A DNA stretch of 64,000 nt, taken from a virus. Lineage: Duplodnaviria; Caudoviricetes. Each line of letters opens with the position of its first letter. The first letter of the stretch is position 1. Shown here one piece after another: positions 22,889 through 40,134 of this stretch. The translations under genes were made by a program, and so were the position numbers. The stretch lies in IMG/VR virus record IMGVR_UViG_3300021425_003554, one strand, 5' to 3'. The notes beneath the pieces were generated by a model, which searched no databases, was not told the origin of the DNA, and was given only the letters and a program-made list of their open reading frames with translations.

Positions 22889-22963
22889 TGGCGGTCCCTA
22901 GGGGAATCGAACCCCTCTTTCGAGGATGAAAACCACGTGTCCTAACCGATAGACGAAGGGACC
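22889..22963 (-). tRNA. tRNA-Glu(UUC)
   Basis: GGTCCCT/AGGGACC acceptor, TT-TTC-AT loop, GTTCGATT T-loop, encoded CCA; T.T mismatch in anticodon stem. Confidence 0.9.
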
Positions 22964-22966
22964 GTT

Positions 22967-23042
22967 TGGTGGAGGTAGAGGGATTCGAACCCACGACCCC
23001 TTGAATGCAAATCAAGTGCTCTCCCAACTGAGCTATACCCCC
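22967..23042 (-). tRNA. tRNA-Ala(UGC)
   Basis: Canonical cloverleaf, G3.U70 identity pair, TT-TGC-AT loop, CCA. Confidence 0.95.
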
Positions 23043-23051
23043 ACATCGATG

Positions 23052-23127
23052 TGGTGCCCCAAGTCCGATTCGAACAGACGACCTACTGATTACAAATCAG
23101 TTGCTCTACCAACTGAGCTATTGGGGC
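23052..23127 (-). tRNA. tRNA-Thr(UGU)
   Basis: GCCCCAA/TTGGGGC acceptor, ACTGA-TTTGTAA-TCAGT anticodon arm, CCA. Confidence 0.95.
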
Positions 23128-33275: not shown

Positions 33276-34019
33276 TTAAAAAATAGTGAGTATATCTGGT
33301 AAATGAAATATTACCAAAATGTAATCTTTGTTTTTTCCGGATTTGAAAAAAGTGTTTGCCAAAAATTTGTCGGGTGTCACTTCCAGCATGGTACCAGGTA
33401 CATGATCATATACTTTTTCCACGGTTAAATTGTCTAATCGATTATACGGATAACCGTTGTTCTGAATCACTGTGTGCCGTAGGTCATATCTAAAACTGTT
33501 GCTGTTTTCTGTTGGCGATATTGGTTGAGAACATCGTTCTAACATTTCCGTGTGATTGGAAGCCGTGTCCGAAAACACCAGTGTCTTGTCCGATGACGGG
33601 TCGGTGTTTATTGGCATTAAAAACATTTTAGTGACCTGCGTCGTATCATGACTAGAATGATGGTATAGGCCGTGAGGTGCATGGCATTCTTGTAGGAACA
33701 TAAAACGAGGCTGGGCAACTTTTAGTTCACTTTTGAAATGCTGTATCTTGTTGATCACTGCCTGTCTTATGCCGTTGCTTGGATCCACGTTGACAAATCT
33801 GGAAAGTGGTTGTAATCGTTCTACTGGTTTGAAAGGAAAGACCGATTCGGGCCTAGAACCGTTGCCGGGATCTACAAAGTTTTTGAAGTCATACGGTTTG
33901 CGTGCCGATGCTTTCAACTGTTTGATCTCGTGTCGTAGCCATTTCAACTGATTGCTGTTCCACACGTCCTTGTGTACATTTGCTACATTCCTGAAAGTGT
34001 CGTTTATATTGTTGCTCAT
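33276..34019 (-). CDS. Degenerate Fe/2OG-oxygenase-like protein
   Basis: Aligns by eye with 35811 ORF but lacks HxD and distal His. Confidence 0.5.
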   Translation of the reverse strand: MSNNINDTFRNVANVHKDVWNSNQLKWLRHEIKQLKASARKPYDFKNFVDPGNGSRPESVFPFKPVERLQPLSRFVNVDPSNGIRQAVINKIQHFKSELKVAQPRFMFLQECHAPHGLYHHSSHDTTQVTKMFLMPINTDPSSDKTLVFSDTASNHTEMLERCSQPISPTENSNSFRYDLRHTVIQNNGYPYNRLDNLTVEKVYDHVPGTMLEVTPDKFLANTFFKSGKNKDYILVIFHLPDILTIF

Positions 34020-34075
34020 ATATCTGTATTTAACTAATTTTCGCCGACTATTCTATGATCATTAAATAAAACATC

Positions 34076-34849
34076 ATGCAAAACATCAAAGAAGCCAGAC
34101 AACTGATACGTGCCGGGGAATACACTGGATATACCAGTGGATGGTGTAGAGACTATGTTCAGGGTAACTTGTGCATAGTGGACAAGTCGGATGCCGAGGA
34201 TTTCGCAGAGTTCTGCAGATTGAATCCAAAACCGTGTCCGGTGTTGGCACAGGGAGATCCCGGAGATCCAGTGTTGAAGTCATTGGGGGATATCAACATA
34301 TGTACCGATCTTCCCAGATATCGCGTGTGGCGTAAAGGTAAATTAGTGGACATAGTTTCTGACATTTCGTCATACTGGACCAACGACATGGTGGCCTTTG
34401 TTCTCGGATGCAGTTTCAGTTTTGATCAACTGTTCTTGGATGCAGGACTGCCGTTGCCTCATCTCAATGATGGTTCGATGGTGGCCATGTACCGCACCTG
34501 GAACGAATGCGAGTCCGTGGGCAAATTTCGAGGACGACTGGTGGTGAGCATGAGACAGTTCCGTGCGGACCATGCCATAGAATCCATAGCGATATCGTCA
34601 AGGTATCCACTGGCACATGGAACTCCTGTACACATCGGAGATCCCACACAGATAGGAATACGAGACCTAACCAAACCCGATTACGGAGATGTGCCCAAAG
34701 TTGTGCAGGGACATCTGCCTGTGTTCTGGGCCTGTGGTGTGACGCCACAGAGCATATTGACCACATCGCCGGATGTGGAGATAGCGATCACACACCAGCC
34801 TGGTTGTATGCTGTTGACCGATATACCTTATTCAAAAATAGCAGTGTGA
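34076..34849 (+). CDS. D-glutamate cyclase family (DUF1445/UPF0317)
   Basis: FCRLNPKPCPVL, TDLPRYRV, GCSFSF, HGTPVHIG, FWACGVTPQ, THQPGCML. Confidence 0.92.
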   Translation: MQNIKEARQLIRAGEYTGYTSGWCRDYVQGNLCIVDKSDAEDFAEFCRLNPKPCPVLAQGDPGDPVLKSLGDINICTDLPRYRVWRKGKLVDIVSDISSYWTNDMVAFVLGCSFSFDQLFLDAGLPLPHLNDGSMVAMYRTWNECESVGKFRGRLVVSMRQFRADHAIESIAISSRYPLAHGTPVHIGDPTQIGIRDLTKPDYGDVPKVVQGHLPVFWACGVTPQSILTTSPDVEIAITHQPGCMLLTDIPYSKIAV

Positions 34850-34857
34850 TAGATCTA

Positions 34858-35493
34858 TCACTGATCGATCATCAGATCATGTATTTGTTGGAAGTCATGA
34901 TCTTTTCTCATTTTGTTTTCTAATCGCAAACTCATGATTATCCTCTCATGTGTGGTAGAGGTGTTCCCCCAGTAATGCCACTCGCCGGTGTTTATCAACA
35001 TTGCCTGGTCGTTCTGTAGCACAGTGGTACAGGCCCGAGGTGTCTGTAGTTGACCTTGCATGTCCCACCATTCATCGTCCACGTTGTGTACATCGCTATA
35101 GATTGTCCGTGGATCATTCTTCAACACTTCATCATCCACCCAGTAGGTGTTGCAACATTGGTCCAGCACCTTTATGGGGAAATTCAATCCCACCAGGTCG
35201 TCGGCACCTGGGCCTTCGGTCCTGTCTCTGTGCAGTGAGGAATAATCTCCGGGCTGTGATATCAGAACACTTCCGATTCTTTGCCACGATATGCTGTCCG
35301 GGCCGGGCAGGCAATGATATATCTCTGACAGATCTATGCTTTTGCGAGTGTGCTTCCGGGCTGTCGGGAATGTGTGTGGTTGACAAACCCTGTCGTCATT
35401 GACGTGTGCCTGTAGCCAAGATATTATTTTGGGCAATCCGGGCCAGGTGATCGTGGTGTAATAGGGAGAGTGATCTGAGATGACTTTCATCAT
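34858..35493 (-). CDS. Fe/2OG-oxygenase-like protein
   Basis: SLHRD, LINTGEWH, ERIIMSLR; start refined to ATG behind GATAAATA. Confidence 0.65.
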   Translation of the reverse strand: MMKVISDHSPYYTTITWPGLPKIISWLQAHVNDDRVCQPHTFPTARKHTRKSIDLSEIYHCLPGPDSISWQRIGSVLISQPGDYSSLHRDRTEGPGADDLVGLNFPIKVLDQCCNTYWVDDEVLKNDPRTIYSDVHNVDDEWWDMQGQLQTPRACTTVLQNDQAMLINTGEWHYWGNTSTTHERIIMSLRLENKMRKDHDFQQIHDLMIDQ

Positions 35494-35562
35494 GTGCTGA
35501 TATTTATCGGCATGGATCAAACAGCATATTATGGTGACACACGCGATATTAAGTATTTTTGT

Positions 35563-35817
35563 ATGTACACCATAGAGCAGAGGAAGACCATATACCTCAT
35601 GACACGCAAACCGGTGTGGTATCACACTCACTGCCTCACACCGGGACCGGGCAAACCCCTGTGGTACGATCCCACGTGGGTCATAGGCGAGTGCGAACTG
35701 TGCCGCATGGACATAGCCGGCCAGGACTGGTGGAACGGTTGCAGTTATCGACAATCACAGAGAAAGGTGTACGACGGCCTGATCAATCAACGCCACTGGT
35801 TTGGTGTTGATCAGTAG
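35563..35817 (+). CDS. Small Cys/Trp-rich hypothetical protein
   Basis: MYTIEQRK..CELC..; fills the gap between minus-strand genes. Confidence 0.45.
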   Translation: MYTIEQRKTIYLMTRKPVWYHTHCLTPGPGKPLWYDPTWVIGECELCRMDIAGQDWWNGCSYRQSQRKVYDGLINQRHWFGVDQ

Positions 35818-36500
35818 GACTCGTTGCGGAACTGTCGGGCGAAGGGTCCTTGTTTGATGGTGGTGTGTATCAGCAGATAGTCCTTGTGTTGGCGTTCCGG
35901 TGAGTGCCTCTGCCAATCAGATCCAGCGTGTATGGCGTGTGCATCAAAACACACAGCATCTCCCAACCTGTACTCGAACACACCGGCCACTGTCATGTGA
36001 TCCACCACTGATTCACAGTGTTCCAGTTGATAGCGTAGTCGGTGATCACCCCTGTGGGGCCATGTGCTCGCACTGTGTATTATGCGTTGTTGGGCCTGGT
36101 GTGCATCGATCTGTTCCTGTCGTAGGTCAGTGATGGTGCTGTGATCAAACACCACTGTGCGATCCACGCCGGGGGTGACGTGTCGCAACGGCAACAGTAT
36201 GCTGTGTCCACGACCCTGATTGGGATGGTTGTCGGTGTGCAGGCTATTTGACCGGTGCTGTTCCACGAAGGCCATGAATGTGAGCTTCTCGTCGGGCAGG
36301 TCCTCCATGACACGCATCGCGAACTGCTGTGTGATGGGATAGAGGTGCTGTTGGGCATTGATCCTGTATCTCCGGGCCATTGCAGTGCGTCCCATGTCGG
36401 GCAGGGGTTCACGCTCCAGGCACTGATCCATTTCCGCACAGATCTGCTCCAGCTCTGCTGTGCTGACCACATCGTGCAGTACTCGGAAATCCACTGTCAT
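35811..36500 (-). CDS. Fe/2OG-oxygenase-like protein
   Basis: SLHTD HxD, distal HAGS; TATAAATA 5 nt upstream of ATG at 36500. Confidence 0.65.
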   Translation of the reverse strand: MTVDFRVLHDVVSTAELEQICAEMDQCLEREPLPDMGRTAMARRYRINAQQHLYPITQQFAMRVMEDLPDEKLTFMAFVEQHRSNSLHTDNHPNQGRGHSILLPLRHVTPGVDRTVVFDHSTITDLRQEQIDAHQAQQRIIHSASTWPHRGDHRLRYQLEHCESVVDHMTVAGVFEYRLGDAVCFDAHAIHAGSDWQRHSPERQHKDYLLIHTTIKQGPFARQFRNESY

Positions 36501-36524
36501 GCTGATATTTATAGGGTGATTGTT

Positions 36525-36570
36525 TGACCCGGCTCCGCTGTGGACGAAACCGGGCGGATCCCACAGTCCC
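36525..36570 (-). ncRNA. Pseudoknotted trailer RNA 3' of the atypical tRNA
   Basis: CTGTGG/CCACAG, TCCG/CGGA, CCCGG/CCGGG pairings in A-C-B-A'-C'-B' order. Confidence 0.5.
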
Positions 36571-36572
36571 TT

Positions 36573-36669
36573 TGGTACGGTCAACAGGACTCGAACCTGT
36601 AGTGCCCTCTCGAGCTCCAGCGTCAAAACACCGGATGTGTCTGGATACTCCTGATTTCACCATGACCGC
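36573..36669 (-). tRNA. Atypical class II (Leu-like) tRNA-like RNA with non-canonical D and anticodon arms
   Basis: 7-bp acceptor GCGGTCA/TGACCGT, A73, CCA, T-arm ACAGG-TTCGAGT-CCTGT, variable arm GCTC-GAGA-GGGC; TGTTATAAT just upstream. Confidence 0.75.
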
Positions 36670-36765
36670 ACACGCATTATAACATGGCCCCGATGGTAAT
36701 GCTAGACCTTTTTTTTCTGCTGTGCAAATTTTTTTGATCTGAGGAACACCGGGTGTAGGCAGTTT

Positions 36766-36936
36766 TTACAACAGCAATCGCCTGTCCACTTCGCTCGCGG
36801 GCACATCACACACCTGTACCAGATCATATCGCTGTTCCAGTGAGTCATGCAGTATGTCAGCGGATTCCCGATCCAACTGCACATAGCAACGATGTAGTAT
36901 ACGGCCCTTTTGACACATAACGTAGTAGTACTTCAT
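36766..36936 (-). CDS. Small hypothetical protein
   Basis: 56-aa ORF MKYYYVMCQKG.. Confidence 0.4.
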   Translation of the reverse strand: MKYYYVMCQKGRILHRCYVQLDRESADILHDSLEQRYDLVQVCDVPASEVDRRLLL

Positions 36937-37170
36937 GTAGGTTATTATACGTTCAAACGACACAGTTGTCAAACCTGGGTATGCAGGGTAAAAAAATCCG
37001 CTGTGCATTTTTTTTAATATGGGGGTATTTTAGCACCACCCCGGTCCTTTTTAGGCCATGGGGCTTACAAATTGCCAAATTTATTACCAAAATAAAAATG
37101 CTATGCGACCGGGGCCAGATCTTTTTCTTTCTGGGTCCAGCCGGCCGACCCTGATTATTAAATATAACAT

Positions 37171-37842
37171 ATGGACAGGATGCAGAGATTGGTGGCCTTT
37201 GGATGTAGCAACACCCTGGGCGAGGGACTGGAGGGCTTCCAGTGGCGACAGCCTCACCCACGGGCATGGCCGGCCGTGTTGGGTCAGCAACTGGACCGAC
37301 CGGTGTTGAACCTGGGCCACTCGGGCGCCAGCAACAGGTACATAATGGATCGTGTGTTGAACACACCGCTCACACGCACCGACACAGTGGTGATCATGTG
37401 GACCAGTTTCGCCAGGCACTGTTGGTTCGATGCGGGGGGACAGGTGCGGCGTGCATTGCCACACGACATAGGAAGGCCACACGAATGGCCACACGACGGA
37501 CCCGAGATCGATGGTCGGCTCAGCGAGCTCTATTACCAACACATATGGTCGGCGCACGATGCCTGGCACGCCAGCATGACACAGATCAACTGGACACAGG
37601 CCTACCTACAGCGGCTGGGCGTGAGATGCCTGCACCTGCTGTGGTGGGAGGGCGATCATCACCGGGACAGGCCCTCATGGAACCAGACCCTGATACACAA
37701 CCTGCCGTTCAGCCAGGAGGACCGTGCACCGGACGGCCACCATCCGGGCGTGAACTCACACCACACACAGGCCCTACGCATCCGGGAACTGCTGTTCCGC
37801 ACACACCCCAACCACCCGGCCACCCTGCGATCCCACAGTTGA
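37171..37842 (+). CDS. SGNH-hydrolase-like phage protein (paralog of 22160 ORF)
   Basis: GCSNTLG, NLGHSGASN, DGHHPG; TTAAATA 6 nt before ATG. Confidence 0.7.
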   Translation: MDRMQRLVAFGCSNTLGEGLEGFQWRQPHPRAWPAVLGQQLDRPVLNLGHSGASNRYIMDRVLNTPLTRTDTVVIMWTSFARHCWFDAGGQVRRALPHDIGRPHEWPHDGPEIDGRLSELYYQHIWSAHDAWHASMTQINWTQAYLQRLGVRCLHLLWWEGDHHRDRPSWNQTLIHNLPFSQEDRAPDGHHPGVNSHHTQALRIRELLFRTHPNHPATLRSHS

Positions 37843-38107
37843 TCTCTCCTTAGATGTGCCTCAATTACCAATAGATCGGGTTGATCTCTCCGTGTGCCCA
37901 CTCGGCACAACGAAGCTCACTGTGCGAACACTTGGTCAAAATGGTCCAAAATGGTACGCCAGGCCCGCCGCCAGCCCTGTGGTTATTGCATAGATTTTAC
38001 CAGATCAACTCGGTAATTGGATTGGCTATGTGGTTATCGCATGGCACTCGGACCGGTCGGGATCGCCCTTTACCACCACCAATCCGGCTGGGGATAAGTA
38101 CTCATAT

Positions 38108-38311
38108 ATGTTCAAGATGATAGTGGTGATATGTGCCCTGGGCAATCCCTGTGTGCAATTCGTGGAGAACCAACACCGGGTGTATGCCACACAAAACCAG
38201 TGCCTGGATCGTGCGGAGATCAAGTACCAACAGCTCACAGCAACACTGATCCAAGCGGGTTATCGACTGGCCGATTCCGGCTACTACTGTGTGAGGGACG
38301 ACAGCATATGA
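38108..38311 (+). CDS. Small Cys-containing, possibly secreted protein
   Basis: MFKMIVVICALGNPC..; GATAAGTA 7 nt before ATG. Confidence 0.55.
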   Translation: MFKMIVVICALGNPCVQFVENQHRVYATQNQCLDRAEIKYQQLTATLIQAGYRLADSGYYCVRDDSI

Positions 38312-38636
38312 TCTGGGATCTAGTGATAATAACGCTGTCAATGGTGGCCTATGCCTACATGGCCTGGTCACTGCATAAGTGAACCAACACACCCCCCACC
38401 GACCCCAAGGCATATTGTTCGCAGATCAGTACCGCTCCCTACCTTTGCACACGGTGGCCAATCGGTGGCCCTCACCCCGGCCAGATCAACCCCAACACGC
38501 CTTTAGGCGTTTGCGACCCAGATTTGCGTATCGAAGGTCACAATTCTTTTGGTAAGATCCTAAGGATGGGGCACTATGCTAAAATACGGCAACCGCTTTT
38601 AGCCACCATACGACACGATCCCGCATACATACTCGT

Positions 38637-38765
38637 ATGCCGTTTAGATACTATTGGGAATGGTTCCTGTTCTGGGTCACTGGCTATCCCTGTTGGGACT
38701 GTGTGAGGATACGCCTGATCATCCTGGTCCTGCTCGTCATCGTTGCCCATTTTTTGCTAGCCTAA
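38637..38765 (+). CDS. Small membrane protein with CxxC (not in ORF track)
   Basis: MPFRYYWEWFLFWVTGYPCWDCVRIRLIILVLLVIVAHFLLA. Confidence 0.5.
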   Translation: MPFRYYWEWFLFWVTGYPCWDCVRIRLIILVLLVIVAHFLLA

Positions 38766-39243
38766 ACAGCCTCCACCATAAACGACCCACGGTGCTCTAC
38801 CATTCCAATTGTGCTTCACACACTGAACTCGCAGGCGATCTAGCCAAGAGGAGTCAGGGTAGATCACAGTTGGGATTATCAGCAGGCACTCTAGGTTAGG
38901 ATAGGGCTCGGTGTCAAAAATTGCTGTCGCGATATGCCTGTAAGGCATATAATGGAAACAAGCATTTGGTAAAATTTTTGCGGCGCACCGCTTCGCGGAC
39001 AGGGCCTATGGCTTCCGGTTGGTAATACCATGTCTGTGTGCTCTGGGGGTGGCTAGGTTAGGGATTGGATGGACTATGGATTCACATACTGGCCACACTC
39101 AAAACCGTGATGGTCGTGAGGTAAGTGATCAGTAGGGTGTATATGGCTATCTTGAGCTTCAGCATCTGTTCCTTGTTGTTGGGATTGTTGAACCTAGACT
39201 ATATATCTGTGGTTGGTTTTTTTTGGGTGGATATGCGAGCCTA

Positions 39244-40134
39244 TTACTGTTGACCCGCATACTTGATTATGAACTTGAGAACTTCCTGTGTGAATACATC
39301 CTTGACTCCAGTGAAACCATGTGCGTCTGCCTGTACTCCGCAACCTCTGGGATCCTTGCCCGGTCCCTTCCAAGTTTCCTCACCGCCTGTTATCTTGACC
39401 AAATATGTGGGTCCGGCGTTCATGCCCTTGTCGGTGTATTTCTTGTATCTGTTCTTGGCCGCCCTGTAGGATGTGCTGGGACACTTGTCCTTCTCGTGGT
39501 GTATGATCAGGGCCGGTATGTTGAATTGCTGGACCTCCAGTCCTCGTTTGCCCGGATACGGAGCCGATTGATTGCCCCCGGACCATATGGCACCCGACAC
39601 CAGGGTTTGGTTCTCTTCCTGCATCAACAGATAGCCCGAGACTCCCTGGGCACCCGCCGAATGACCCATGATGAACACGGGTTTTCCAAATTGCTCGTGA
39701 GCCCACAGCACCACTGACTTGACTCTGGCCACATAGTCCTCGGACCATCTGCCCGGACCACCCCAATCACCGTTGGGCATCTTCTTGTCGTTCCTGATCT
39801 CATAGCCCACGTCAACACCCACGGTGGTAATGATGTTGGAAAGGTGTTCTATGGGACCAAAGTTCAGTGAGTTGACACGACCCCTGCCACCCTGCAACCA
39901 AACGATCACGGCCGGCGAGTCCTCAACGGCACTCACCACCATTTTGGTGAAGAGACCGGTCTGTCCCTTGTCTTTACAGTCCTCGGACACACACTCCACG
40001 AATCTGATGGAATCACCCGCCAAACCATGATGTGCCTTGGCCGGCAACGAAACCACGCCCAATAGCATCAACACCGCTATGGCACCACCCACGGTGCCCA
40101 CGGTCAATTTGACAAAATCAATGATGTTCCTCAT
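39244..40134 (-). CDS. Exported alpha/beta-hydrolase-like protein
   Basis: N-terminal hydrophobic segment, GHSAG nucleophile elbow, IIHHEKD, distal HGF. Confidence 0.7.
   Translation of the reverse strand: MRNIIDFVKLTVGTVGGAIAVLMLLGVVSLPAKAHHGLAGDSIRFVECVSEDCKDKGQTGLFTKMVVSAVEDSPAVIVWLQGGRGRVNSLNFGPIEHLSNIITTVGVDVGYEIRNDKKMPNGDWGGPGRWSEDYVARVKSVVLWAHEQFGKPVFIMGHSAGAQGVSGYLLMQEENQTLVSGAIWSGGNQSAPYPGKRGLEVQQFNIPALIIHHEKDKCPSTSYRAAKNRYKKYTDKGMNAGPTYLVKITGGEETWKGPGKDPRGCGVQADAHGFTGVKDVFTQEVLKFIIKYAGQQ

What the first reader, a model, noticed from the sequence alone, without database searches (positions are those of the whole stretch)
36525..36572. Compact three-helix A-C-B-A'-C'-B' pseudoknot directly 3' of the atypical tRNA
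Minus strand: GGGA-CTGTGG-GA-TCCG-CCCGG-TTTCGT-CCACAG-CGGA-G-CCGGG. Three perfect complementary block pairs occur in parallel order within 46 nt, a few nt after CCA and before the next late promoter. The position matches tRNA-associated HDV-like theta ribozymes of phages, but the P3/L3 core is absent, and hammerhead, twister and pistol cores do not match by eye. Candidate new self-cleaving ribozyme or exonuclease-blocking fold for tRNA 3' processing.
Basis: partly seen in the sequence, partly recalled or inferred. Interest (0 to 1): 0.8.

Follow-up and report, generated by a model that had tools for sequence, protein, structure and literature searches.

The report
Conserved folded tail of phage tRNA mimic
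The 45 bases after this phage's tRNA-shaped RNA are a real, conserved folded RNA domain made of a 12-pair hairpin and a second helix that overlaps it; it is not the proposed three-helix knot, it matches no known ribozyme, and its function is still unproven.

Summary
The three block pairs are in the sequence where stated. As a bare pattern they are not beyond chance: 6 such places on this strand, against about 2 in random sequence.

Relatives settle the structure. I found 16 related loci from marine, estuary and marsh metagenomes, giving 10 distinct trailers in three clades.
- **A-A' is supported.** It is 7 pairs long and two of its pairs changed on both sides (CUGUGG/CCACAG to CUGGUG/CACCAG).
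- **B-B' is supported, but it is only the base of a 12-pair, G-U-rich hairpin** (36555-36527). That hairpin's loop is A'.
- **C-C' is refuted.** It shows no covariation and is broken in 6 of 40 cells. The same changes keep the hairpin paired.

A-A' and the full hairpin cannot form together within one molecule. They must be alternative folds, or the A-A' pairing forms between molecules.

Rfam gives no ribozyme or riboswitch match, and the HDV/theta core features are not met.

The trailer belongs to a sporadic cassette: an extended -10 promoter, a tRNA-Leu-derived RNA with no anticodon, and this domain.

My best reading (0.42) is a domain that stabilises and processes the 3' end of this RNA. Function is inferred, not shown.

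Other notes from this scan describe similar ideas on other DNA: structured elements fused to CCA ends, and tRNA mimics fused to a second domain. A sequence look-up found no shared sequence with them.

The parts
36676..36684 (-). Extended -10 promoter TGTTATAAT. Six bases separate it from G1 of the tRNA-like RNA, so transcription should start at or next to G1.
   Evidence: Sequence. TGnTAnnnT lies at the same 6-nt distance in all 16 related loci. Promoter activity is inferred.
36573..36669 (-). 97-nt tRNA-Leu-derived RNA that cannot decode. It has an acceptor stem, T arm, long variable arm with a GAGA loop, and an encoded ACCA. The anticodon arm is replaced by a 6-7 bp stem with a 4-6 nt loop.
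   Evidence: ARAGORN. Rfam tRNA scores 30.9 bits. The stem covaries and the loop is UUCG in L008. L019 is a true tRNA-Leu(GAG) with the same acceptor, D and T parts.
36570..36572 (-). Variable single-stranded linker between CCA and the conserved domain. It is AAG here; relatives have AAA, UAAA(G), CAAU or UGG.
   Evidence: Structural alignment.
36567..36569 (-). Invariant GGA, complementary to the invariant UCC at 36558-36556. The two are predicted to form a 3-bp mini-stem that presents strand A as a loop.
   Evidence: Invariant in 10 of 10 distinct sequences. Present in the RNAalifold consensus and in the minimum-energy folds. There is no covariation. A fourth pair appears in L011 (U-A) and in the L021 clade (G-C).
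36560..36566 (-). Strand A, CUGUGGG. It pairs with A' over 7 bp; the last pair is G-U here and A-U in relatives that lack the extra G.
   Evidence: 100% of cells paired; columns 7/30 and 8/29 changed on both sides (UA to GC, GC to UA); one G-U in L025.
36556..36558 (-). Invariant UCC linker between strand A and the hairpin.
36527..36555 (-). 12-bp hairpin. The 5' strand is 36555-36544, the loop CCACA is 36543-36539, and the 3' strand is 36538-36527. It has four G-U pairs in the window.
   Evidence: Minimum-energy and centroid fold at -20 kcal/mol. Present in the full-length folds of 9 variants. Covariation: 5 of 11 counted pairs changed on both sides and 98% of cells are paired. RNAalifold gives the same helix.
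36538..36544 (-). Strand A', UCCACAG. It consists of the hairpin's loop plus its closing U-G pair.
36534..36537 (-). In the supported structure it belongs to the hairpin's 3' strand and pairs with UUCG at 36548-36545, not with UCCG.
   Evidence: C-C' has C.A mismatches in L014 and L008, and A.C or C.C mismatches in L011 and the L021 clade. The same substitutions keep the hairpin paired.
36519..36526 (-). A-rich tail after the hairpin (CAAACAAU). There is no U-run. The cassette ends about 15-20 nt after the hairpin.
36506..36513 (-). TATAAATA motif 5 nt upstream of the ATG (36500) of the next gene. That gene is a 229-aa PhyH-like Fe(II)/2OG dioxygenase at 36500-35811. It is not part of the RNA cassette.

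Best explanation
**What it is.** The trailer is the structured 3' domain of a small, self-contained phage RNA cassette. The cassette consists of an extended -10 promoter, a tRNA-Leu-derived RNA that has lost its anticodon loop, a 2-5 nt linker, and this 43-nt domain.

**Shown.** The domain's ground state is a 12-bp, G-U-rich hairpin. It is preceded by the invariant sequence GGA-CUGUGG(G)A-UCC. The 7-nt A segment is perfectly complementary to the hairpin's loop and covaries with it.

**Inferred.**
- Helix A and the complete hairpin cannot coexist in one molecule.
- Helix A therefore forms either transiently, before the hairpin's 3' strand is transcribed, or together with only the lower 6 bp of the hairpin as an H-type pseudoknot.
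- The stable hairpin closes the transcription unit and blocks 3'-to-5' exonucleases.
- That leaves the short linker after CCA as the only accessible site where a host endonuclease can free the CCA end.
- The domain would thus control the stability and 3' maturation of the tRNA mimic.
For: **Strict linkage.** A metagenome scan anchored only on the tRNA-like body left the trailer unconstrained. It returned 14 loci. Twelve tRNA-like hits had readable sequence beyond CCA, and every one of them carries the domain. One more hit (L022) is cut off 15 nt after CCA. The only other hit is a genuine tRNA-Leu(GAG) followed by a normal hairpin-plus-U terminator.

**Structure.** In the 18-pair model 98.9% of cells are paired and 7 pairs changed on both sides. 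No shuffle out of 500 reached the observed pairing or covariation score. Controls with partners slid by 1-3 columns are 38-44% paired. The G-U pairs place the RNA on the tRNA strand. The minimum-energy, centroid and alignment consensus folds all give the 12-bp hairpin.

**Conservation.** Within the window's own clade group the RNA is 81-97% identical, while the adjacent protein is only 52-57% identical.

**Cassette behaviour.**
- The unit sits upstream of three different genes.
- It is absent from otherwise homologous loci.
- Its 3' border falls just after the hairpin.
- Each downstream gene has its own promoter-like motif.

**Comparison within the window.** The three genuine tRNAs in the window have an encoded CCA but no structured trailer.

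**Geometry.** 11-12 bp of deep groove span 25-29 Å, against a 3-4 nt linker. 7 bp of shallow groove span 26 Å, against a 0 nt linker. Helix A plus the lower 6 bp of the hairpin is feasible.
Against: - No RNA ends were observed. Contigs from RNA libraries cover the region, but they break where strains differ, so they say nothing about processing.
- The hairpin is followed by an A-run, not a U-run, so it is not a canonical intrinsic terminator. The phage uses canonical terminators elsewhere.
- A mere exonuclease barrier would not need an invariant GGA and UCC, nor a covarying loop-to-flank helix. Part of the function is therefore unexplained.
- The linker is not A/U-rich in the L021 clade, where it is UGG.
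- The covariation rests on three clades, so only a few independent events support it.
Confidence: 0.42

Rival explanations
1. The domain is a functional small RNA in its own right. The tRNA-like body would serve as a promoter-proximal handle for processing or stability, as in the herpesvirus tRNA-miRNA units or the E. coli leuZ 3' trailer sponge. Two adjacent hairpins (the GGA/UCC mini-stem and the 12-bp hairpin) would display complementary 7-nt loops.
For: - A and A' covary although they are sterically barred from pairing alongside the full hairpin.
- The consensus fold shows both segments as loops.
- GGA and UCC are invariant.
- At the same genomic spot, relatives carry a tRNA-less hairpin RNA under the same promoter type. 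It shares the 13 nt ACUGUGGGAUCCG with this trailer.
Against: - There is no evidence that the trailer accumulates.
- The GGA/UCC stem has only 3 bp and shows no true covariation.
- No target was identified.
- The 13-nt match is limited to one lineage.
- The named analogies come from my own knowledge and were not tested here.
Confidence: 0.2
2. It is simply the end of the transcription unit. The hairpin would act as a terminator or an RNA-stabilising stem, and the extra complementarity and conservation would have no separate function.
For: - The hairpin is stable at -20 to -24 kcal/mol.
- It lies at the 3' border of the cassette.
- The true tRNA-Leu relative has a terminator at the same position.
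Against: - There is no U-tract.
- The loop and the 5' flank are invariant or change together, which a plain terminator does not require.
Confidence: 0.12
3. It is a cis-acting switch, such as a riboswitch, an antiterminator or a translational control element, that regulates the gene downstream.
For: Two mutually exclusive conserved folds are typical of switches. The domain lies 26 nt upstream of the next start codon.
Against: - The downstream gene differs between clades: a dioxygenase, a 212-aa ORF, or a 58-aa ORF.
- Homologous genes exist without the cassette.
- Each downstream gene has its own promoter-like motif.
- There is no Rfam riboswitch match.
Confidence: 0.07
4. [quoted passage not shown] This was the first reader's favoured idea.
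For: - The position after a phage tRNA gene matches that of theta ribozymes (PMC10879173).
- Helix A has 7 bp, like P1 of HDV-like ribozymes.
- An invariant C (36537) follows A', and an invariant GGA precedes A.
Against: - No Rfam ribozyme model matches at E up to 10.
- The first pair of helix A is C-G, not G-U.
- Only 5 nt lie where P3/L3 should be, and those 5 nt covary as ordinary pairs.
- The J4/2 position holds paired purines.
- The core starts a variable 2-5 nt after CCA.
- CCA is encoded, which is the case for only 4.5% of theta-associated tRNAs.
- One RNA-library contig runs uncut across the tRNA-like RNA, the trailer and the gene. This is weak, because DNA carry-over is possible.
Confidence: 0.06
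5. The compact three-helix A-C-B-A'-C'-B' pseudoknot exists exactly.
For: All three block pairs are perfect in the window sequence.
Against: - C-C' is broken in 6 of 40 cells and has no compensatory change.
- Its 3' strand covaries with UUUCG instead.
- The linkers of 0-2 nt cannot span the helices.
- The pattern recurs by chance about twice per strand of the window.
Confidence: 0.03

Closest known systems
Theta ribozymes: minimal HDV-like ribozymes next to phage tRNA genes (Kienbeck et al. 2024, PMC10879173)
   Same: Both are compact pseudoknot-capable RNAs encoded directly 3' of a phage tRNA-type gene. tRNA-Leu is among the common theta partners. Helix A has 7 bp, like P1.
   Different: - There is no G1-U wobble, no P3/L3 and no unpaired catalytic C.
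- The core begins a variable distance after an encoded CCA.
- The element comes from marine and estuarine samples, not from gut phages.
- No HDV-family Rfam match was found.
E. coli 3'ETS-leuZ trailer sponge and the MHV68 tRNA-miRNA (TMER) units (from my own knowledge, not tested here)
   Same: In both, a functional RNA is encoded as the 3' trailer of a tRNA or tRNA-like gene and is released by tRNA-processing enzymes.
   Different: Those trailers end in a normal terminator or are pre-miRNA hairpins. Here neither release nor a target is shown.
   Same: Complementary loop sequences covary but cannot pair within one molecule. Loop-loop helices are 6-7 bp long.
   Different: No multimer has been shown. 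One 'loop' is closed by only 3 bp. There is no packaging context.
Classical H-type pseudoknots (S1-L1-S2-L2-S1'-L3-S2')
   Same: Helix A (7 bp) plus the lower hairpin (6 bp), with loops of 3-4, 5 and 5 nt, fits the H-type pattern and is sterically feasible.
   Different: Loops L2 and L3 are complementary to each other and covary. That extends S2 to 12 bp and excludes S1, which makes this a two-state arrangement rather than a fixed knot.
T4 stable RNAs species 1 and 2: tRNA-like phage RNAs of unknown function (from my own knowledge)
   Same: A large lytic phage encodes a tRNA-related RNA that does not decode.
   Different: No sequence or structural similarity was tested or seen.

Membership tests
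Theta / HDV-like self-cleaving ribozymes | P1 of about 7 bp that starts at the cleavage-site G1 with a G-U wobble, within about 1-5 nt of the tRNA 3' end | tested here: not met
   Helix A has 7 bp, but its first pair is an invariant C-G. It starts 6-8 nt after CCA, at a distance that varies.
Theta / HDV-like self-cleaving ribozymes | A P3 hairpin with an L3 loop, and a 2-bp P1.1, between the 5' strand of P2 and the 3' strand of P1 | tested here: not met
   Only 5 nt (UUUCG) lie there. They covary as a continuous helix with CGRRR.
Theta / HDV-like self-cleaving ribozymes | An unpaired catalytic cytosine at the first position of J4/2 (PMC10879173) | tested here: not met
   The segment before the P2-like 3' strand is made of purines paired with U or C. 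The invariant C36537 sits in an invariant G-C pair of the hairpin, so its pairing can be neither confirmed nor excluded.
Theta / HDV-like self-cleaving ribozymes | Self-cleavage in vitro | not testable with these tools
   This needs a bench assay.
Any Rfam 15 family, including hammerhead, twister, twister-sister, pistol, hatchet, HDV, the pseudoknot riboswitches and YrlA | A covariance-model match | tested here: not met
   A cmscan of 36400-36800 at E up to 10 returned only tRNA, at 30.9 bits. The whole-window scan at gathering scores returned only the three true tRNAs.
Intrinsic (Rho-independent) terminator | A G+C-rich hairpin followed directly by a U-tract | tested here: not met
   The hairpin is present, but the tail is CAAACAAU, and it is A-rich in all relatives. 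The terminator scan does not list it.
H-type pseudoknot | Two helices, each supported by covariation, in which the 3' strand of the first lies between the two strands of the second, with loops long enough to cross the grooves | tested here: inconclusive
   Both helices covary. The geometry allows helix A plus the lower 6 bp, but not helix A plus the full 12 bp. Which state forms in vivo is unknown.
Decoding tRNA (for the upstream gene) | A 7-nt anticodon loop on a 5-bp stem | tested here: not met
   The loops have 4-6 nt of variable sequence on a covarying 6-7 bp stem, and the loop is UUCG in L008. ARAGORN assigns Gly, Ser or Arg inconsistently.

The most novel reading that the evidence does not exclude
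The domain is a two-state or self-associating RNA device of a kind not described for tRNA-type genes. A 7-nt segment and the loop of the neighbouring 12-bp hairpin are kept complementary, although they cannot pair while the hairpin is whole. A new ribozyme class is a smaller share of this reading.
Probability: 0.2. Interest if true: 0.8.

Novelty: new variant of a known kind. Interest (0 to 1): 0.6.

Why it matters
Phage tRNA genes are usually read as simple codon-usage helpers. Here a phage lineage keeps a tRNA-Leu body that can no longer decode and has fused it to a conserved, covarying RNA domain that matches no catalogued family. The whole unit moves as a cassette between intergenic sites.

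If the domain controls release of the CCA end, or links the RNAs together, it would be a second structured-trailer solution beside theta ribozymes. It would also give a handle on what anticodon-less tRNA mimics do in phages. Leucyl-tRNA synthetase does not read the anticodon, so such an RNA could in principle be charged without entering translation; that is my inference from established knowledge, not a result.

Practically, the alignment defines a new RNA motif that can be modelled and searched.

Tried and rejected
- **Rfam.** Scans at gathering scores and at E up to 10 found no family except tRNA. The neighbouring 'RNA-X' loci also gave nothing.
- **HDV/theta fit by hand.** I tried several registers (P1 starting at GGAC, or at CUGUGG). 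None gives G1-U, P3/L3 or a free catalytic C.
- **BLAST against cultured phage genomes.** The window region and the L021-type RNA both gave no match.
- **IMG/VR pattern scans.** They found only two near-identical contigs.
- **Bacterial-genome scan, wasted by my error.** I set the gap to 11-13 nt when it should have been 10-12. The 9 hits are chance matches in coding DNA. Whether the motif occurs in bacterial genomes is therefore untested.
- **RNA-library contigs.** They cover the region, but the contig breaks at 36573, 36560 and 36533-36536 coincide with strain differences. They give no information on RNA ends or cleavage.
- **MAFFT alignments of the trailer.** They mis-register the single-base indels. 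I replaced them with an alignment made by a covariance model and by a hand-parsed one.
- **Pairing of strand A with the CCA end,** a lead from another note of this scan. It gives 5 bp in L011, L014, L008 and the L021 clade, but only 3 bp in the window's clade and in L025. It is not consistent enough to claim.
- **A' as a mimic of the CCA end.** This fails in L025, where A' reads CUACA.
- **Long-range pairing between the trailer and the tRNA body.** I found only invariant or G-U-tolerant 4-5 bp matches.
- **A kissing interaction in cis** between the GGA/UCC mini-hairpin and the 12-bp hairpin. I rejected it on geometry.
- **More trailer variants through homologs of the 58-aa downstream ORF.** None of those loci carries the cassette.

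Full report
**Setting.** The window is part of a large dsDNA phage. It encodes a helicase, a primase, a DnaB-like helicase and a clamp-loader-like protein. Overall G+C is about 33%, with an island of 49-55% G+C at about 34-40 kb. The finding lies in that island on the minus strand, right after a 97-nt tRNA-like gene at 36669-36573. Near-identical DNA occurs in seawater, marine, marsh and estuary samples.

**The observation.** The quoted blocks are present exactly as described.
- As a bare pattern they are weak. Three mutually crossing perfect helices totalling at least 15 bp within 40 nt occur at 6 places on this strand. Composition-matched random sequences give a mean of 2.2.
- The folding energy of the region is ordinary, with z = -1.05.
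B-B' continues through G-U pairs into a 12-bp hairpin, GCCCGGUUUCGU/CCACA/GCGGAGCCGGGU (36555-36527, -20 kcal/mol). This hairpin uses the bases of C' and has A' as its loop.

**Relatives.**
- Homologs of the downstream 229-aa protein led to contigs that carry the same RNA. The RNA there is 81-97% identical, although the protein is only 52-57% identical.
- I then scanned JGI metagenomes with a pattern anchored only on the tRNA-like body, so the trailer was not pre-selected. This gave 14 more loci.
- Twelve of the tRNA-like hits have readable sequence beyond CCA, and all twelve carry the trailer. One more (L022) is cut off 15 nt after CCA.
- The one remaining hit (L019) is a genuine tRNA-Leu(GAG). 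It has a 28-nt 5' leader and an ordinary hairpin-plus-U terminator.
- In all there are 10 distinct trailers in three clades: the window type, L025, and the L021 type.

**Structure from variation.** I used an alignment made with a covariance model.
- The model of helix A (7 bp) plus the hairpin (11 further bp) has 98.9% of cells paired and 7 pairs with changes on both sides. No shuffle out of 500 reached the observed pairing or covariation score. Controls with partners slid by 1-3 columns reach only 38-44% pairing.
- Helix A changes from CUGUGG/CCACAG to CUGGUG/CACCAG, which is two compensatory pairs. It shows one G-U in L025.
- In the hairpin, 5 of the 11 counted pairs changed on both sides. 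For example, C-G became U-A, G-C became C-G, and U-A became C-G.
- In the window's clade the three purines opposite UUU vary freely between A and G (GAG, GGA, GAA, AGG, AGA). They are all G wherever the 5' side is C.
- The many G-U pairs would be A.C mismatches on the other strand. The RNA is therefore read from the tRNA strand.
Every one of those substitutions keeps the hairpin paired.
- RNAalifold independently returns the 12-bp hairpin plus a 3-bp GGA/UCC mini-stem. Full-length folds of nine variants keep the cloverleaf and the hairpin.
- Caveat: three clades give only a few independent evolutionary events. The shuffle counts are not probabilities.

**Can the two helices coexist?** I used ideal A-form geometry.
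- Spanning 11-12 bp across the deep groove needs 25-29 Å, but the linker has only 3-4 nt.
- Spanning 7 bp across the shallow groove needs about 26 Å, but that linker has 0 nt.
- Helix A and the complete hairpin are therefore mutually exclusive within one molecule.
- Helix A plus only the lower 6 bp is a feasible H-type pseudoknot with loops of 3-4, 5 and 5 nt.
- The hairpin state is more stable by several kcal/mol. Helix A alone is worth -6 to -8.5 kcal/mol, and it is the predicted fold of the nascent chain in several variants.
- The data therefore point to one of three things: two alternative folds, a transient co-transcriptional helix, or loop-to-loop pairing between molecules.

**What it belongs to.**
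- The upstream gene is not a decoding tRNA. Its 'anticodon arm' is a covarying 6-7 bp stem with a 4-6 nt loop of variable sequence, UUCG in one lineage. ARAGORN names a different amino acid in different relatives.
- All 16 loci have an extended -10 box exactly 6 nt before G1. The transcript should therefore start at G1 without a leader.
- The unit sits in front of three different genes: a PhyH-like Fe(II)/2OG dioxygenase here, a 212-aa ORF, or a 58-aa ORF followed by ClpP.
- It is missing from otherwise homologous loci.
- Its 3' border lies 15-20 nt past the hairpin.
- At the same spot some relatives carry a different hairpin RNA of about 90 nt under the same promoter type. It shares 13 nt (ACUGUGGGAUCCG) with this trailer.
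- The three true tRNAs of the window have an encoded CCA and no structured trailer.

**Known families.**
- Rfam 15 gives no match other than tRNA at E up to 10.
- I compared the trailer with the defining features of theta/HDV-like ribozymes as described in PMC10879173. The G1-U wobble, P3/L3 with P1.1, and the free catalytic C of J4/2 are all not met. The core also starts a variable 2-5 nt after an encoded CCA.
- The hairpin has no U-tract, so it is not a canonical terminator. The phage has canonical terminators elsewhere.

**Function.** Nothing here shows function directly. The RNA-library contigs were uninformative.
- I favour a 3' domain that stabilises the tRNA mimic and governs release of its CCA end (0.42).

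**Verdict.** This is a real, conserved, uncatalogued RNA motif.

Noticed in passing
window 36573-36684 (-); loci L003-L030: The 'atypical tRNA' is a tRNA-Leu-derived RNA without an anticodon loop. A covarying 6-7 bp stem carries a 4-6 nt loop, which is UUCG in L008. It is transcribed from an extended -10 box placed so that G1 is the start. L019 holds a true tRNA-Leu(GAG) with the same acceptor, D and T parts. Since LeuRS does not read the anticodon (established knowledge), the RNA could perhaps be charged without being used in translation.
   Followed up: partly
window 35811-36500 (-): The 229-aa protein with no Pfam hit is a PhyH-like Fe(II)/2OG dioxygenase with HTD...H motifs. Its best structural matches are AsqJ, OkaE and FtmOx1, which are tailoring enzymes of cyclic-dipeptide-type natural products. 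It lies next to a D-glutamate cyclase.
   Followed up: partly
L048:420-560 and L040:760-890: At the spot where other relatives carry the tRNA-like cassette, these loci have a different hairpin RNA of about 90 nt under the same promoter type (T-run, GGTCTAGCAT, TGnTAnAAT). Its stem GGGAUCCG/CGGAUCCC covaries in L040. In L048 it shares 13 nt with the window's trailer. There is no Rfam match.
   Followed up: partly
window 36498-36513 (-): TATAAATA lies only 5 nt before the ATG and is conserved in relatives, which suggests a leaderless late mRNA. One RNA-library contig ends exactly at 36500. TATAAATA itself is not enriched in the window: 3 sites, against 5.7 expected.
   Followed up: no
window 34000-40000: An island of 49-55% G+C, about 6 kb long, sits inside a phage genome of about 33% G+C. 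It holds the RNA cassette, the dioxygenase, the D-Glu cyclase and a DUF6071 protein.
   Followed up: no
window 22889-23127 (-): Three ordinary tRNAs (Thr, Ala, Glu), all with an encoded CCA, are spaced 3-9 nt apart. They are followed directly by a TAAATA motif and an ATG, with no structured trailer.
   Followed up: yes
L029:476-1391; L048:567-1491: A conserved 58-61 aa ORF (MIPYT...) lies upstream of a phage ClpP protease. It is widespread in marine metagenomes, with 78 protein clusters. Its function is unknown.
   Followed up: no
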